From a phage, in the sequence record NC_110914.1: DNA of 44,992 bases; one strand, given 5' to 3'. How positions within the stretch are numbered: position 1 is the first letter of the stretch; every line of letters starts with the position of its first letter. Position numbers and translations under genes: made by a program. Positions 30,267 through 36,483 of this stretch are shown here, one piece after another. The notes under the pieces are model-generated. The model did not search any database and was not told the DNA's origin. It saw only the letters and a program-made list of their open reading frames with translations.

Positions 30267-32036
30267 ATGACCATTTCCACCGATACAACCTTGTTGCATG
30301 ACCCGCGACGGCAGGCATCGCTGCTTTACTGGCAGGGTTTTTCCGTGCCACAGATTGCCGAAATGCTGCAGGTCAAGCGCCCGACCGTGCAGAGCTGGAA
30401 GCAGCGTGACGGCTGGGACGGCATCGCGCCGATTTCCCGCGTTGAAAGCAGCCTTGAGGCTAGGCTGATTCAGCTCATCGCCAAGCCGCAAAAGACAGGG
30501 GGTGATTTCAAAGAGATTGACCTGCTCGGACGGCAGATTGAACGGTTGGCGCGAGTCAACCGCTACAGCCAGACCGGCAACGAAGCCGACCTTAACCCCA
30601 ACGTCGCCAACCGCAACAAAGGGGAGCGCAAAAAGCCGAAAAAGAATTTTTTCAGCGACGAGGCTATCGATAAACTAGAGGAATTATTTTTCGACCAGTC
30701 TTTCGAGTACCAGTTGCAGTGGTACCGCGCAGGACTGGAGCACCGTATTCGTGACATTCTCAAATCCCGCCAGATTGGCGCGACATTCTATTTCTCCCGC
30801 GAGGCACTGCTGCGCGCACTCAAAACCGGCCATAACCAGATATTTTTATCAGCCAGTAAAACGCAGGCTTACGTGTTCCGCGAATACATCATCCAGTTTG
30901 CGCGACTGGTCGACGTTGACCTGACTGGCGACCCGATTGTCATCGGTAACAACGGCGCAAAACTGATTTTTCTCGGTACCAATTCCAACACCGCGCAGAG
31001 CCATAACGGCGATCTGTATGTCGATGAAATATTCTGGATCCCGAATTTTCAGAAACTGCGCAAAGTCGCCTCGGGCATGGCCTCGCAAAAGCACCTGCGC
31101 TCGACCTATTTTTCGACACCTTCCACGCTGGCGCACGGCGCTTACCCCTTCTGGTCTGGCGAGCTGTTCAACAAGGGGCGCAGCCGGATTGCCGACCGCA
31201 TCGAAATCGACATCAGTCACAGCGCGCTCGCCGGTGGCCAGCTCTGCGACGATGGCCAGTGGCGGCAGATTGTCACCATTGAGGACGCCCTTGCGGGTGG
31301 CTGCACCCTGTTCGACCTCGACCAGCTCAAACGCGAAAACAGTGATGAGGACTTTAAGAACCTGTTTATGTGCGAGTTTGTCGACGATAAAGCGTCGGTA
31401 TTCCCGTTCGAGGAGCTGCAGCGCTGCATGGTCGATGTAATGGAGGAATGGGAGGACTTTGCCCCGTTCGCCGACCATCCGTTCGGCTCTCGTCCTGTCT
31501 GGATTGGCTACGACCCGTCACACACCGGCGACAGTGCCGGGTGCGTCGTGCTCGCGCCGCCGGTGGTCTCTGGTGGCAAGTTCCGCATGCTGGAGCGCCA
31601 CCAGTGGAAGGGCATGGATTTTGCAGCACAGGCAGAGGGCATCCGCAAGCTGACCGAGAAATACAACGTCGAATACATCGGCATTGACGCAACCGGCCTC
31701 GGTCTCGGCGTGTTCCAGCTGGTGCGCTCATTTTACCCGGCGGCACGCGGCATCCGTTACACACCTGAAATGAAAACCGCAATGGTACTCAAGGCGAAAG
31801 ACACCATTCGCCGTGGCTGTCTGGAGTACGACGCCGGAGCAACCGACGTCACGCAGTCGTTTATGTCCATCCGCAAAACCATGACCAGCAGCGGGCGCAG
31901 CGCCACCTATGAGGCCAGCCGCACCGAGGAAGCCAGCCACGCCGATATCGCATGGGCGACCATGCACGCCCTGTTAAACGAACCGCTTTCTGCCGGTAGC
32001 GGCATGCAGCCTAAATCTATTCTGGAGTTCAACTAA
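30267..32036 (+). CDS. P: Terminase large (ATPase) subunit gpP
   Basis: 589-aa ORF (P2 gpP about 590 aa) at the expected position. Confidence 0.9.
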   Translation: MTISTDTTLLHDPRRQASLLYWQGFSVPQIAEMLQVKRPTVQSWKQRDGWDGIAPISRVESSLEARLIQLIAKPQKTGGDFKEIDLLGRQIERLARVNRYSQTGNEADLNPNVANRNKGERKKPKKNFFSDEAIDKLEELFFDQSFEYQLQWYRAGLEHRIRDILKSRQIGATFYFSREALLRALKTGHNQIFLSASKTQAYVFREYIIQFARLVDVDLTGDPIVIGNNGAKLIFLGTNSNTAQSHNGDLYVDEIFWIPNFQKLRKVASGMASQKHLRSTYFSTPSTLAHGAYPFWSGELFNKGRSRIADRIEIDISHSALAGGQLCDDGQWRQIVTIEDALAGGCTLFDLDQLKRENSDEDFKNLFMCEFVDDKASVFPFEELQRCMVDVMEEWEDFAPFADHPFGSRPVWIGYDPSHTGDSAGCVVLAPPVVSGGKFRMLERHQWKGMDFAAQAEGIRKLTEKYNVEYIGIDATGLGLGVFQLVRSFYPAARGIRYTPEMKTAMVLKAKDTIRRGCLEYDAGATDVTQSFMSIRKTMTSSGRSATYEASRTEEASHADIAWATMHALLNEPLSAGSGMQPKSILEFN

Positions 32037-32037
32037 A

Positions 32038-33084
32038 ATGGGTAAACAAAAATCCCGTAAAGCCAACGCACAAAAGGCCAGCAAACCACAACAACTGACC
32101 GCCAGCGCACCGCCAAAAACGACAGCGTTCACCTTCGGCGAGCCGGTGCCGGTGCTCGATAAGCGCGACATTCTGGATTACGTCGAGTGCATCAGTAACG
32201 GCAAATGGTACGAGCCGCCGGTCAGCTTCTCAGGGCTGGCAAAGAGCCTGCGCTCTGCCGTGCATCACAGCTCGCCAATTTATGTTAAGCGTAACGTGCT
32301 CGCGAGCACCTACATTCCGCACCCGTTGTTATCCCGTCAGGATTTCAGCCGCTTTGCGCTCGATTATCTGGTGTTCGGTAACGCCTTTCTTGAGCAGCGC
32401 CACAGCGTCACCGGCCAGTTAATCAAACTGCTGGCCTCGCCAGCCAAATACACCCGACGCGGAGTCGACGATTCGATTTTCTGGTTTGTGGAAAACTTCA
32501 CCCAGCCGCACGAGTTCGCGCCTGATACCGTGTTTCACCTGCTGGAGCCCGACATTAATCAGGAGATTTACGGCCTGCCCGAATATCTCAGCGCGCTAAA
32601 TTCCGCCTGGCTGAATGAATCCGCGACGCTGTTCCGCCGCAAGTATTATCAGAACGGCGCGCACGCGGGTTACATCATGTATGTGACTGACCCGGCGCAG
32701 AGCGCGACCGACGTCGAATCGCTGCGCGAGGCGATGCGCAACTCAAAAGGGCTCGGCAACTTTAAGAACCTGTTTTTCTACGCTCCCGGCGGAAAACCGG
32801 ACGGCATCAAAATCGTGCCACTGAGCGAGGTCGCCACAAAGGATGACTTTTTCAACATCAAGAAGGCCAGTGCCGCCGATCTGATGGACGCGCACCGCGT
32901 ACCGTTCCAGCTCATGGGCGGCAAGCCCGAGAATATCGGTTCACTCGGTGATGTTGAGAAGGTGGCAAAGGTATTTGTGCGCAACGAGCTGTCGCCGCTA
33001 CAGGACCGGTTCAGGGAGGTAAATGACTGGCTCGGCATGGAGGTCATCAGATTCAAAGAGTACACCCTCGACAACCCAGAATAA
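32038..33084 (+). CDS. Q: Portal protein gpQ
   Basis: 348-aa ORF directly after P; P2 gpQ-like size and position. Confidence 0.9.
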   Translation: MGKQKSRKANAQKASKPQQLTASAPPKTTAFTFGEPVPVLDKRDILDYVECISNGKWYEPPVSFSGLAKSLRSAVHHSSPIYVKRNVLASTYIPHPLLSRQDFSRFALDYLVFGNAFLEQRHSVTGQLIKLLASPAKYTRRGVDDSIFWFVENFTQPHEFAPDTVFHLLEPDINQEIYGLPEYLSALNSAWLNESATLFRRKYYQNGAHAGYIMYVTDPAQSATDVESLREAMRNSKGLGNFKNLFFYAPGGKPDGIKIVPLSEVATKDDFFNIKKASAADLMDAHRVPFQLMGGKPENIGSLGDVEKVAKVFVRNELSPLQDRFREVNDWLGMEVIRFKEYTLDNPE

Positions 33085-33161
33085 CTTAGGCCGCCACAAT
33101 CTCTGCGCTCATTATTGAAGATGCAATCTGCGAAAGCTATAGTGCATCGAATATCAAAACA

Positions 33162-34166
33162 ATGGGCGCGGAGATTAATATTTTGGAAACTGATTTTAAA
33201 ATAACCCTCGAAGGTTTCGCTACTGAGCAAGAAGCAAATAATATCGGTAATTTCACACTAGAAGCTATCCGAGCTTTAACAAAAAATCTCAATCTTGATA
33301 TCTCCAAATTAAAATGCGTGATTGTTTCCTATAACTTCAGTGAAGCTCTTCAAAAGGTAACATCCTCTTACCAACACAAATCCCCTAGTTCATTTACCAA
33401 TAGCAAACAGGGCGCAGCCGTCGGGCAGTTAGTAACAAAAATTGGCAATGATGGGCTATGTGAAGAATATACCCTTGTGCTATCGATTGATTTTTTTGTT
33501 GAGCTTTTCAATGATGGTAGCTTCTTAAAACTGAAAGAAGAAGGATACCTCGCAGTCATCCATCGCATTCACCATGAATTAGTGCACGTACATGAAAAAA
33601 ACTTACTAACATGCTTAGCCCAAAACTTTACAGTCAACGAGTATGGTAGCGCGCTTCTTATCTCAGCCACGCGTGCATGGTCTGAATATCTCGCTAATTA
33701 CATGTCTTCGGGGTCTGCCCCTCAAGAAACTATCGATTTATTTTTAGAGAATCTTGACACTGTTGTAAATGAAGTATCTGACGAGATTGAAAAACTCATC
33801 TGGGGTTATAAGTACGGTAATATTTCTCTGAATGACATGTATCTCGAAGTAAAAAAACGTATCAGGCTAATCATCAACTCTTATGCTTATGCGATGGGTT
33901 ATGTCCATTCTCTAAACATCAATATTAAAGAATACGATCCAAAGCTATCCCTTACACTATCCAACTCAAAGATAAGATATCAATTATCAGAATTAGGCAT
34001 TGCTTTTCAGAATCTTTATGGGAAGTTTAATGACCAGCACATTACAGGTTTTGGTGATTTTCGGGAGATAACAATAATCATTGATGAAATATTCAAGCAG
34101 TTTGGGCTTGTTTTAGAGTGTCCCGATTGGTCTGGCGACGGTGAACTCTACATACATGTAAATTAG
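33162..34166 (+). CDS. Hypothetical HExxH-motif protein (cargo gene between portal and cos)
   Basis: 334-aa AT-rich ORF with HRIHHELVHVHE (HExxH) and a Glu about 20 residues downstream (NEYG), suggestive of a zinc metallopeptidase fold. No recognised homologue from memory. Confidence 0.55.
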   Translation: MGAEINILETDFKITLEGFATEQEANNIGNFTLEAIRALTKNLNLDISKLKCVIVSYNFSEALQKVTSSYQHKSPSSFTNSKQGAAVGQLVTKIGNDGLCEEYTLVLSIDFFVELFNDGSFLKLKEEGYLAVIHRIHHELVHVHEKNLLTCLAQNFTVNEYGSALLISATRAWSEYLANYMSSGSAPQETIDLFLENLDTVVNEVSDEIEKLIWGYKYGNISLNDMYLEVKKRIRLIINSYAYAMGYVHSLNINIKEYDPKLSLTLSNSKIRYQLSELGIAFQNLYGKFNDQHITGFGDFREITIIIDEIFKQFGLVLECPDWSGDGELYIHVN

Positions 34167-34386
34167 TTTAATCATAGTAGAAACATAATTAGCAGTTTGA
34201 ATCCTGCCACTCCTGTAAAGCCGCTGCTCCTGGTGGCTTTTCCATGCACACCACCATCACGCATCAGATGCGTCTCACGCGCACGAACACACCCGACCAC
34301 CAACGAACCAGCAGCGACCACGACAGCGCCATCACGACGCGCTCAGAGGATAATTTTTATTATTACGCATCACTGCTGGCGCGCAA

Positions 34387-34405
34387 TGCTTTCCCCGCCA
34401 CGCCT
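34387..34405. other. Candidate cos site (19-nt cohesive end)
   Basis: Reverse complement GGCGTGGCGGGGAAAGCAT is 17/19 identical to the remembered P2 cohesive end GGCGAGGCGGGGAAAGCAC, in a GC-rich non-coding gap pointing toward Q as in P2. Confidence 0.6.
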
Positions 34406-34641
34406 GCCCGCTTTATGGGGCGGTTTTAATGCAGTTGCATGACCACTCTGGATCCCCGCCAGCTCTTGCGGCGCACGTACAAAACGGGTAACCCCGGCGC
34501 ATGCAGAACCATGCACCTGTTGCATGCACAGCTTATTTATTGATAAATCACCTTAAATTTACAAAAATTACGGACATTGATTCTTTCCAAACATGATAGC
34601 CTCTCGATAATTATCGAGCCTATTTTTGAACGGAGAAAGAT

Positions 34642-35583
34642 ATGCAAGGTGAAGTTGACGAACAGCAACCCAATGAGATTATGTCGGAGTTTGGATACTA
34701 TCCAGTAGAAGTTAACATTGAGACTGAACAATTTTCTTTGCTTACTTTACCTGGTCTCAATGAGAAAGTGGAGCGTGTTAATAATGATAAAAACGTTGTG
34801 AAAGGTTGGATATACCCTGGAAACCAAGATGTATATAACCTTAATGGTGGCATATCCACAATGCCTTATAGTCACCGAGTATTCAGTATGCCCAAAACGC
34901 ACACACTAAAATTAAAAAATACATCCTCGTTAGAAACTCTCAACTTTATTGTGTGGTGCCTTTCTTTTTTCAAGGGAATAAGATTGACAACCACTGACGC
35001 TGGTTTTTTAGATGCAACCACTATCAAGCCCACTAAGTTAACCGACTTTATTCTCGTTGGATGCTCTGAAAAAGAAGTCATAGAACTGGCTCTTAATTAT
35101 ATAAATGGCAAACATAAGGATGCGCACTCCCCCAAAAGAATTGCGGCAGTGGTGCATGCACTATTCTTATCTCAAAACCCACAATACCTTTCTTTTGAAA
35201 AATTCCAGTACCTTTACATGGCACTTGATGGGTGCTTTGCTTTGTCGTGGGCTGAGCATGACAAGGCTCCTGATAAAAAACCGCCAAATCATTACAAGCG
35301 ATTAAAGTGGATGTGCAAAATTTATGGGTTATCAATCCCCACATGGGTGTCAGGTAAAAAAAACATTTCTGGCATCCGCAATGATAATTTTCATGAGGCT
35401 ATTTTTTTTGGTCAACCGCTTGGTTTCTCAAGTGTTAACAACAGTCAATATGGTAACGATATATTGCTGCAAATGCAGGCACTGGTATGTCGCCTATTAG
35501 CGGCAATACTGTCGGTTAATGATTGCAGTTATCTCAAATCTTCGGTCAACTCACGAGATTACCATTCATTAAAAATAAATTAA
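34642..35583 (+). CDS. Hypothetical protein with R-x4-H motif (cargo gene at the P2 old/tin position)
   Basis: 313-aa AT-rich ORF with its own AT-rich upstream region and a GGAG-type RBS; contains ...GIRNDNFHEAIFF... (R-x4-H, possibly HEPN-like). No recognised homologue from memory. Confidence 0.55.
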   Translation: MQGEVDEQQPNEIMSEFGYYPVEVNIETEQFSLLTLPGLNEKVERVNNDKNVVKGWIYPGNQDVYNLNGGISTMPYSHRVFSMPKTHTLKLKNTSSLETLNFIVWCLSFFKGIRLTTTDAGFLDATTIKPTKLTDFILVGCSEKEVIELALNYINGKHKDAHSPKRIAAVVHALFLSQNPQYLSFEKFQYLYMALDGCFALSWAEHDKAPDKKPPNHYKRLKWMCKIYGLSIPTWVSGKKNISGIRNDNFHEAIFFGQPLGFSSVNNSQYGNDILLQMQALVCRLLAAILSVNDCSYLKSSVNSRDYHSLKIN

Positions 35584-35657
35584 TGCTAACGCCTCGCGGT
35601 GCTCGTTGTTCAACCCCCGCCAGTACTGAAAGCGAGTTTCAGAACCGGCGGCGTTTG

Positions 35658-36066: not shown

Positions 36067-36297
36067 TTAACGCCAGCTATCGTCTTCCCAAATCTCTTGT
36101 AATATGCTGCCTAATGTTTCTCTGTCCGCCTCTTTATCGAATCCGATAGCCTCTACACCAGTCATTGACCCTTTCTTAACGTTAACTTTTGTTGCAGGAA
36201 AAACGCATTGTACTCGATGTGTTATTTCATTTTGAAAAGCATCAATGATCTGTTGCCCTAATTTTTGCTCTTTATCCAACGTGATATTGATTCTCAT
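36067..36297 (-). CDS. DinI-like protein (C-terminal-domain equivalent of 186 Tum)
   Basis: 76-aa ORF MRINITLDKEQ...RVQCVFPATKVNVKKGS...ETLGSILQEIWEDDSWR resembling remembered DinI; LexA box upstream of the two-ORF unit. Confidence 0.75.
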   Translation of the reverse strand: MRINITLDKEQKLGQQIIDAFQNEITHRVQCVFPATKVNVKKGSMTGVEAIGFDKEADRETLGSILQEIWEDDSWR

Positions 36298-36300
36298 AAT

Positions 36301-36483
36301 CTAATCAGCCTTATAAAAATTATCATCTTCGGTTTCGTTATTTTCGCTGTTTGCTAGGTCTGCAATGAGAGTGAGCGCGAGCTTTAAGTCTGATGGCTTG
36401 CAGTTTGCAATCAGAGATACCTCGGCAATAAATTGCACACAAGCCCACTTTTGCTGCGTTCGGCTGAAATGTTCGCCAACCAT
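36301..36483 (-). CDS. Small protein upstream of and in frame with the DinI-like ORF (possible N-terminal part of a Tum-like antirepressor)
   Basis: 60-aa ORF separated from the DinI-like ORF only by an in-frame TAG; GGGAGG RBS before its ATG. Confidence 0.5.
   Translation of the reverse strand: MVGEHFSRTQQKWACVQFIAEVSLIANCKPSDLKLALTLIADLANSENNETEDDNFYKAD

What the first reader, a model, noticed from the sequence alone, without database searches (positions are those of the whole stretch)
33162..34166. Uncharacterised HExxH protein inserted between the portal gene and cos
In P2 only about 150 bp separates Q from cos; here a 1-kb AT-rich gene sits there, co-directional with P-Q. The HHELVH motif with a downstream Glu suggests a gluzincin-like metallopeptidase. 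I cannot match it to a known defence or anti-defence family from memory, and the location is a known variable cargo region of P2-like phages.
Basis: partly seen in the sequence, partly recalled or inferred. Interest (0 to 1): 0.8.

Follow-up and report, generated by a model that had tools for sequence, protein, structure and literature searches.

The report
Orphan zinc-peptidase gene in prophage hotspot
A 186/P2-like prophage carries, between its portal gene and its DNA-packaging site, a gene with its own promoter for an uncharacterised zinc-protease-like protein that moves alone between phages and defence islands, and is most plausibly an untested anti-phage gene.

The parts
33085..34230 (+). 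Cargo insert relative to phage 186 (1,146 bp, GC 0.38)
   Evidence: blastn against 186: homology stops at 33084 and resumes at 34231. GC values.
33115..33143 (+). Sigma-70 promoter of the cassette (-35 TTGAAG 33115-33120, 17-nt spacer, -10 TATAGT 33138-33143)
   Evidence: Consensus scan. ATTGAnn-N17-TATAGTG is conserved between the P2-borne copies and the recombinase-linked cassettes of Serratia, Enterobacter and Buttiauxella, whose flanks are unrelated. Activity not tested.
33170..33173 (+). Shine-Dalgarno GGAG, 9 nt before TTG 33183
   Evidence: Invariant GAG/GGAG-N9-TTG in all 8 aligned upstream regions.
33183..34166 (+). CDS of the zincin-like protein (327 aa from TTG; the longer ORF from ATG 33162 gives 334 aa)
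33570..33602 (+). Active-site motif H137-H138-E139-L-V-H142-V-H144-E145-K-N147 (334-aa numbering), on model helix 126-148
   Evidence: H137, H138, E139, H142, E145 and N147 are invariant in the close family. E139 and H142 are invariant and H138 >=90% in the superfamily. Helix.
33678..33698 (+). W173-S-E175-Y-L-A-N179: putative third zinc ligand Glu on the next long helix (160-185)
   Evidence: W173, S174, E175, Y176, A178 and N179 are invariant. W173, E175 and A178 are >=90% in the superfamily. Helix. Ligand role is inferred from gluzincin topology.
34217..34245 (+). Terminator-like hairpin plus U-run, homologue of 186 tW, now downstream of the cargo gene
34231..34533 (.). Conserved cos region shared with 186-like phages
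   Evidence: blastn against 186 and against the Escherichia sp. and Citrobacter prophages.
34386..34404 (.). 19-nt cohesive-end sequence (reverse complement GGCGTGGCGGGGAAAGCAT, 186 type)
   Evidence: Exact single match. Annotated as cos in U32222.

Best explanation
The gene is a mobile single-gene cargo cassette (moron) carrying its own sigma-70 promoter, SD and weak TTG start. It was inserted between the portal stop codon and the late-operon terminator of a 186-like prophage. The inferred zinc ligands are the two His of HExxH and Glu175, and Glu139 is the inferred catalytic base. A roughly 125-residue C-terminal helical domain of unknown role follows. The most likely function is protection of the lysogen against other phages. 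In that model the enzyme is made at a low level in the lysogen, and on infection it cleaves an essential host or phage protein and aborts or blocks the infection. This is the same logic as the e14 protease Lit, in an unrelated protein family. Shown here: the gene is real and under selection; the motif is conserved; the fold is zincin-like; the cassette is autonomous and its promoter is conserved; it rides on mobile elements and sits in hotspots. Inferred: zinc binding, proteolysis, expression in the lysogen, the defence role, the trigger and the target.
Against: There is no experimental phenotype, and no PADLOC or other defence model matches. The defence-neighbour sample is small: 5 of 13 non-P2 chromosomal contexts, with no formal enrichment test, and some contexts are uninformative. 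Rousset et al. note that the hotspot also holds non-defence cargo such as partition systems and cytolethal distending toxin. The gene lies upstream of the late-operon terminator with no terminator after Q, so late read-through expression is possible. The promoter is not recognisable in the second P2-like lineage. I could not inspect model coordinates, so the metal-site geometry is unverified. Foldseek finds no significant structural neighbour. One fused relative (P0139) has RExxH instead of HExxH.
Confidence: 0.45

Rival explanations
1. It is a lytic-cycle or counter-defence protease. It would be transcribed by read-through from the late P-Q operon and would degrade a host defence protein, or a competitor's or satellite's protein, during P2-like phage growth.
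For: It is co-directional with and immediately downstream of the portal gene (or portal plus Ogr) in two divergent P2-like lineages. It lies upstream of the tW terminator, and no terminator is predicted between Q and the gene.
Against: A conserved own promoter is shared with copies in non-phage contexts. Homologues sit in chromosomal defence islands and recombinase cassettes with no phage late operon. No isolated phage in 50,697 records encodes it.
Confidence: 0.15
2. It is a lysogenic-conversion factor unrelated to phage defence, for example a protease acting on host physiology, stress responses, inter-bacterial competition or virulence.
For: The hotspot also carries non-defence cargo. The gene occupies the position after zot in a filamentous prophage, which from my own knowledge is the slot where CTX phage carries ctxAB. 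In Serratia it lies among Hcp/DUF4225 T6SS-type modules. Several carrier E. coli strains are from human extraintestinal sources such as urine or blood, or are avian pathogenic strains.
Against: There is no signal peptide and no recognisable secretion or effector-delivery domain (sequence; Pfam). Homologues occur in free-living marine Psychromonas, Colwellia, Shewanella and Agarivorans, and in soil Bacillales. Defence genes flank it in Colwellia.
Confidence: 0.15
3. It has a zincin-like fold but is not a peptidase. It could be a metal-dependent hydrolase acting on a nucleotide or nucleic acid (as in the YbeY-type or DUF45/YgjP-type zincin-like enzymes), or a catalytically irrelevant scaffold.
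Confidence: 0.1
4. It is a regulatory protease of the prophage itself, an ImmA-like anti-repressor that cleaves the 186-type CI repressor or another regulator to control induction.
For: HExxH proteases of the M78 family do this in other mobile elements. The neighbourhood holds SOS-related cargo (DinI-like gene). In 186 the SOS-controlled tum region lies near cos (own knowledge).
Against: There is no M78 Pfam hit and no adjacent HTH partner. It is present in only about 2% of E. coli genomes carrying related portals. Homologues occur where there is no prophage repressor.
Confidence: 0.05
5. It forms a two-gene system with the 313-aa ORF (34642-35583) that becomes adjacent across cos in the circular or prophage form.
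For: Both are AT-rich (GC 0.38), co-directional and without known function, and they are adjacent in the prophage.
Against: The Escherichia sp., Citrobacter and Salmonella prophages keep the HExxH gene but have other DNA in place of 34534-35584. The 313-aa gene occurs in P2-EC67 and several Yersinia and E. coli phages that lack the HExxH gene. No homologue of it is found next to distant HExxH genes.
Confidence: 0.03

Closest known systems
Lit protease of the e14 prophage (Pfam Peptidase_U49)
   Same: It is a prophage-borne, single-gene, cytoplasmic protein of about 300 aa with an HHExxH motif. It is the only classic example of a stand-alone zinc-metalloprotease phage-exclusion gene. From my own knowledge, Lit cleaves EF-Tu when the T4 Gol peptide is present. 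This is the proposed working analogy.
   Different: No homology is detectable. The profile-to-sequence hhalign gives probability 13.7% over only 18 columns at the motif, and there is no Peptidase_U49 Pfam hit. The third-ligand region and C-terminal domain are not alignable. Trigger and target here are unknown.
Gluzincin peptidases of clan MA(E): M1 aminopeptidase catalytic domains, M30 lugdulysin/hyicolysin, M9 collagenases, M4 thermolysin
   Different: Sequence identity is 8-12%, and neither single-sequence nor profile searches find any solved structure. There is no GxMEN exopeptidase motif. The protein is small, stand-alone and cytoplasmic, with its own C-terminal helical domain. Foldseek finds nothing significant.
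ImmA/IrrE (M78) HExxH peptidases in defence and prophage loci (pFR104 'Peptidase + TM' from the same P2 hotspot, PD-lambda-2B, CapP)
   Same: They are HExxH zincins encoded in the same P2 hotspot or in defence operons.
   Different: pFR104 is a 161-aa M78-type protein (HELAHHVLGH) with a TM partner. The M78 proteins cited here come with partner genes. The present protein has no M78 hit, is twice as long and stands alone.
P2 old/tin and other cargo of the gpA-gpQ hotspot of P2-like phages
   Same: It lies in the same hotspot, is AT-rich, has patchy distribution and swaps as a module. Rousset et al.'s Table S5A lists this very arrangement as all-hypothetical apart from DinI.
   Different: It lies on the Q side of cos, inside the late-operon 3' end, whereas old and tin, and the swapped modules seen here, lie on the A side. 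The protein family is unrelated and has never been tested.
PADLOC candidate PDC-S31 (DUF2971 single-gene candidate)
   Same: Two distant relatives (P0139, P0204, about 595 aa) fuse a DUF2971/PDC-S31 domain to this zincin-like domain.
   Different: The PDC-S31 models cover only residues 2-282 of the fusions, not the zincin part. The window protein has no DUF2971 domain.

Membership tests
Gluzincin (clan MA(E)) metallopeptidase | HExxH motif on an alpha-helix, conserved across the family | tested here: met
   H138-E139-x-x-H142 lies on model helix 126-148. It is invariant in the close family. E139 and H142 are invariant and H138 >=90% across 78 divergent sequences.
Gluzincin (clan MA(E)) metallopeptidase | Third zinc ligand is a Glu on the next helix downstream of HExxH | tested here: inconclusive
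   E175 (33 residues after H142) lies on helix 160-185 and is >=90% conserved. E/D145 is an alternative acidic candidate.
Gluzincin (clan MA(E)) metallopeptidase | Thermolysin-like zincin fold | tested here: met
Gluzincin (clan MA(E)) metallopeptidase | Zinc binding and peptide-bond hydrolysis | not testable with these tools
   This needs biochemistry.
Lit / Peptidase_U49 | Sequence homology to Lit (Pfam PF10463) | tested here: not met
   No Pfam hit at E<=1. hhalign of the A2 profile against E. coli K-12 Lit gives probability 13.7% over 18 columns.
ImmA/IrrE (Peptidase_M78) | Pfam M78 domain and an adjacent HTH/partner gene | tested here: not met
   No hit, and no conserved partner.
Any catalogued anti-phage defence system (PADLOC-DB 2.0) | Match to a defence-protein HMM | tested here: not met
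   0 families for the window protein. Among 78 relatives only the DUF2971 part of two fusions matches.
Cargo of the P2-like gpA-gpQ hotspot | Located between portal gpQ and replication gpA, next to cos, variable among related prophages | tested here: met
   The hotspot is defined in PMC9122126.
Anti-phage defence gene (functional class) | Reduces phage infection when expressed | not testable with these tools
   Only context evidence exists. This family was not among the systems cloned by Rousset et al..

The most novel reading that the evidence does not exclude
This would be the founding member of a new family of stand-alone zinc-metalloprotease immunity genes. It would share its logic with Lit but be evolutionarily unrelated. 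It spreads as a roughly 1.1-kb self-promoted cassette among P2-like phages (a Q-side-of-cos slot in two lineages), filamentous prophages, serine-recombinase cassettes and defence islands. Relatives occur in Gammaproteobacteria, Bacillales, Campylobacterota and on Bradyrhizobium plasmids (342 representative clusters).
Probability: 0.4. Interest if true: 0.65.

Novelty: new variant of a known kind. Interest (0 to 1): 0.55.

Why it matters
Protease-based phage exclusion by a single stand-alone metalloprotease is known essentially from one decades-old case, Lit. A second, unrelated and much more widely distributed family would show that this strategy is recurrent. It would also provide a tractable single-gene system for finding what is sensed and what is cleaved. 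The family is absent from Pfam, NCBIfam and PADLOC, so current defence annotation pipelines cannot see it, even though by the collection index it is frequent in Salmonella prophages. The case also shows that the P2-like hotspot extends to the portal side of cos, inside the 3' end of the late operon.

Tried and rejected
Single-sequence and profile HMM searches against PDB sequences gave only noise.

Foldseek against PDB and BFVD found nothing at E<=1e-3. The afdb50 library was unavailable.

The Lit homology hypothesis was rejected.

Identity with the 'Peptidase + TM' system cloned by Rousset et al. was rejected, because that system is an M78 protein.

A two-gene system with the 313-aa ORF across cos was rejected.

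I looked for a conserved partner gene among the roughly 300-aa upstream ORFs in the Psychromonas and Agarivorans loci. They are not homologous to each other.

I considered an invertible-segment idea for the recombinase-linked cassettes. Only weak inverted repeats were found, and they fall in DNA not conserved between the loci, so they are treated as chance.

A profile search of the 5.8-billion-protein set with A2 returned almost only close relatives because of the candidate cap.

The cos site could not be located in the second P2-like lineage by similarity.

Literature searches by accession, PHROG id and keywords found no description of this family.

Full report
**Observation**

The window holds a 186/P2-like prophage. 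P (terminase ATPase, 30267-32036) and Q (portal, 32038-33084, Pfam Phage_portal) read rightwards. They are followed by the ORF 33162-34166 (334 aa) named in the finding.

GC content falls from 0.56-0.57 in P and Q to 0.38 across the ORF, then rises again over cos. The 186-type cohesive-end sequence occurs once, at 34386-34404.

Comparison with phage 186 (U32222) fixes the boundaries. Homology runs to the portal stop at 33084 and resumes at 34231, inside the 186 tW terminator. So 1,146 bp replace 20 bp. The stop-to-cos gap is 1,301 nt here against 176 nt in 186. A tW-like hairpin with a U-run remains at 34217-34245, now downstream of the extra gene.

**Gene model**

RefSeq annotation of an identical E. 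coli prophage starts the gene at TTG 33183, giving 327 aa. Four lines of evidence support that start.

- Upstream regions from eight homologues in three kinds of context all have GGAG or GAGG nine nucleotides before a TTG at this position.
- Many homologues begin exactly there.
- Model residues 1-7 are disordered.
- The ATG at 33162 would place the SD inside the coding sequence.

I therefore take 33183-34166 as the CDS. Residue numbers below keep the 334-aa numbering.

**Is it a real gene?**

Yes. There are 78 clusters at 90% identity, all called 'hypothetical'. They come from Escherichia, Salmonella, Citrobacter, Klebsiella, Pectobacterium, Serratia, Enterobacter, Buttiauxella, Yersinia, Kosakonia, Shewanella and Psychromonas, down to 42% identity.

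An exhaustive profile search finds 342 representative clusters, mostly full-length proteins of 305-340 aa. Ka/Ks against the Salmonella copy is 0.23.

**What the protein is**

It has no Pfam, NCBIfam or PADLOC match. It falls in phrog_11743, of unknown function.

In the close family H137, H138, E139, H142, E145, N147 and W173-S-E175-Y-x-A-N are invariant. Across 78 divergent relatives (17-50% identity) E139 and H142 stay invariant, and H138, W173, E175 and A178 are at least 90% conserved.

An AlphaFold2 model built on the family alignment is confident, with pLDDT 90.8 and pTM 0.90. Its layout is:

- an N-terminal alpha/beta subdomain;
- the HExxH helix (126-148);
- a long helix carrying E175 (160-185);
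- a C-terminal helical domain (188-313);
- a terminal beta-hairpin.

Foldseek finds nothing significant in the PDB or BFVD, and its weak hits are again zincins. Sequence and profile searches find no solved relative.

The protein is thus a divergent member of the gluzincin structural class. Zinc binding and catalysis are inferred. I could not measure the metal-site geometry because model coordinates are not exposed. The N-terminus shows no signal peptide or membrane segment, so I take it to be cytoplasmic.

**What it is not**

It is not in the Lit family: the profile comparison with E. coli K-12 Lit aligns only 18 columns at the motif, with probability 13.7%.

It is not ImmA/IrrE. The 'Peptidase + TM' system that Rousset et al. 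cloned from this hotspot is a 161-aa M78 protein unrelated to this one.

**Autonomy and mobility**

The gene behaves as a single-gene cassette.

- *Independent of the A-side cargo.* The prophages of Escherichia sp. E1V33, Citrobacter amalonaticus and Salmonella keep it at the same junction but carry different DNA on the other side of cos. The 313-aa ORF module (34534-35584) is swapped out. Conversely, that 313-aa gene occurs in P2-EC67 and other phages that lack the HExxH gene.
- *Present in a second P2-like lineage.* In Yersinia enterocolitica and in a metagenome contig, a copy at 56-59% identity sits after portal plus an Ogr/Delta gene and before gpA, in the same orientation.
- *Filamentous prophage.* In one assembly from a public sequencing run the gene follows zot. 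From my own knowledge, this is the slot where CTX phage carries its toxin genes.
- *Recombinase-linked cassette.* In Serratia fonticola, Enterobacter ludwigii and Buttiauxella it is paired, divergently, with a 189-205-aa serine recombinase. Between the Serratia and Enterobacter loci the pair is 69-75% identical at the DNA level and the flanks do not align.
- *Conserved expression signals.* The motif ATTGAnn-N17-TATAGTG, the SD and the TTG start are conserved between the P2-borne copies and the recombinase cassettes. This argues that the cassette brings its own promoter (here -35 at 33115-33120, -10 at 33138-33143).
- *No conserved partner.* Neighbours of distant homologues are not homologous to one another.

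**Frequency**

The gene is in 26 of 5,426 complete E. coli genomes, always chromosomal and single-copy. One copy appears split into two annotated genes. A related portal is found in at least 1,191 genomes, and 68 records have a portal at least 90% identical. So the gene is far from universal in P2-like prophages.

No record among 50,697 phage genomes encodes it. In Salmonella the protein is very frequent in the assembly collection. Distant relatives lie on large plasmids of Paenibacillus, Brevibacillus, Pseudomonas amygdali and Bradyrhizobium.

**Function**

The gpA-gpQ interval of P2-like phages is a documented hotspot from which several anti-phage systems have been validated. It also holds non-defence cargo (PMC9122126; bioRxiv 10.1101/2022.05.12.491691; bioRxiv 10.64898/2026.02.27.708500).

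Rousset et al.'s Table S5A lists this very arrangement, with every gene except DinI called 'hypothetical'. From the gene order I infer that WP_001622301 is this protein. It was not among the systems they cloned.

Outside P2-like phages, 5 of 13 chromosomal contexts have a PADLOC-recognised gene within 5 kb:

- Colwellia, the clearest case: Shedu SduA, then a TIR protein immediately upstream and a PD-T4-7 homologue immediately downstream;
- Agarivorans: PDC-S14;
- Serratia: an Aga-type nuclease;
- Bacillus: AbiO/Nhi;
- Psychromonas: type I R-M and helicases.

A Paenibacillus plasmid copy lies near CoiA and a Pycsar effector. Two relatives are fused to DUF2971, the domain of the PADLOC candidate PDC-S31.

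This is suggestive, but the sample is small and there is no formal enrichment test.

I therefore commit, with moderate confidence, to the following reading. The gene encodes a latent cytoplasmic metallopeptidase, expressed from its own promoter in the lysogen, that excludes other phages by cleaving a host or phage protein on infection. This is the logic of Lit in an unrelated family.

The main rivals are:

- a late-expressed lytic or counter-defence protease, favoured by the position upstream of tW and the conserved orientation after the portal gene;
- a lysogenic-conversion factor unrelated to phages;
- a non-peptidase zincin-like hydrolase;
- an ImmA-like regulatory protease.

**Novelty**

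The hotspot and the idea of prophage-borne protease exclusion are both known. I rate it a new variant of a known kind. Interest is moderate until a phenotype is shown.

Noticed in passing
window 34534-35584 (ORF 34642-35583 +, 313 aa): A second AT-rich (GC 0.38) cargo module lies on the A side of cos. Its protein has no Pfam, NCBIfam or PADLOC hit and belongs to phrog_5937 (unknown function). It is present in P2-EC67 (AM157369) and in several Yersinia and E. coli P2-like phages. It is swapped out in otherwise similar prophages, so it is an independent candidate cargo or defence gene.
   Followed up: partly
window 36067-36297 (-) and 36301-36483 (-): A DinI-like gene (Pfam DinI, E 1.7e-17) and a 60-aa ORF (phrog_1993) lie between the cargo and gpA. 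The same DinI position recurs in the Salmonella prophages and in many arrangements listed by Rousset et al.
   Followed up: no
L006 7042-9011, L021 5116-6984, L028 7099-8984: In Serratia fonticola, Enterobacter ludwigii and Buttiauxella the HExxH gene is paired divergently with a 189-205-aa serine recombinase (Pfam Resolvase). Between the Serratia and Enterobacter loci the pair is conserved at 69-75% DNA identity while the flanks do not align. This may be a mobile or invertible unit. The inverted repeats found were weak and not conserved.
   Followed up: partly
L024 1180-9668: A 42%-identical homologue sits right after zot in a CTX-like filamentous prophage (Rep_trans, RstB, Zot, integrase). 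This is the slot where CTX phage carries its toxin genes.
   Followed up: no
L025 7627-7953, L026 7619-7945: A second P2-like lineage has an Ogr/Delta zinc-finger gene directly downstream of the portal gene, followed by the HExxH gene. In L025 a second Ogr_Delta gene is present elsewhere in the same prophage. The cos site of this lineage could not be found by similarity.
   Followed up: partly
L014 4023-12229 (Colwellia psychrerythraea): This is a compact defence island: Shedu SduA (E 1e-152), a TIR-domain protein (PDC-S35-like), the HExxH gene and a PD-T4-7 homologue.
   Followed up: partly
window 33088-33100 and 34217-34230: Both ends of the insert carry a GCCGC-containing remnant of the 186 tW stem ('aggccgccacaat' and 'aaagccgctgctcc'). 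This suggests insertion or recombination within the terminator stem.
   Followed up: no
P0139 / P0204 (about 595 aa): These proteins fuse an N-terminal DUF2971 (PDC-S31-type) domain to a C-terminal domain of this zincin-like family. P0139 has RExxH in place of HExxH.
   Followed up: partly
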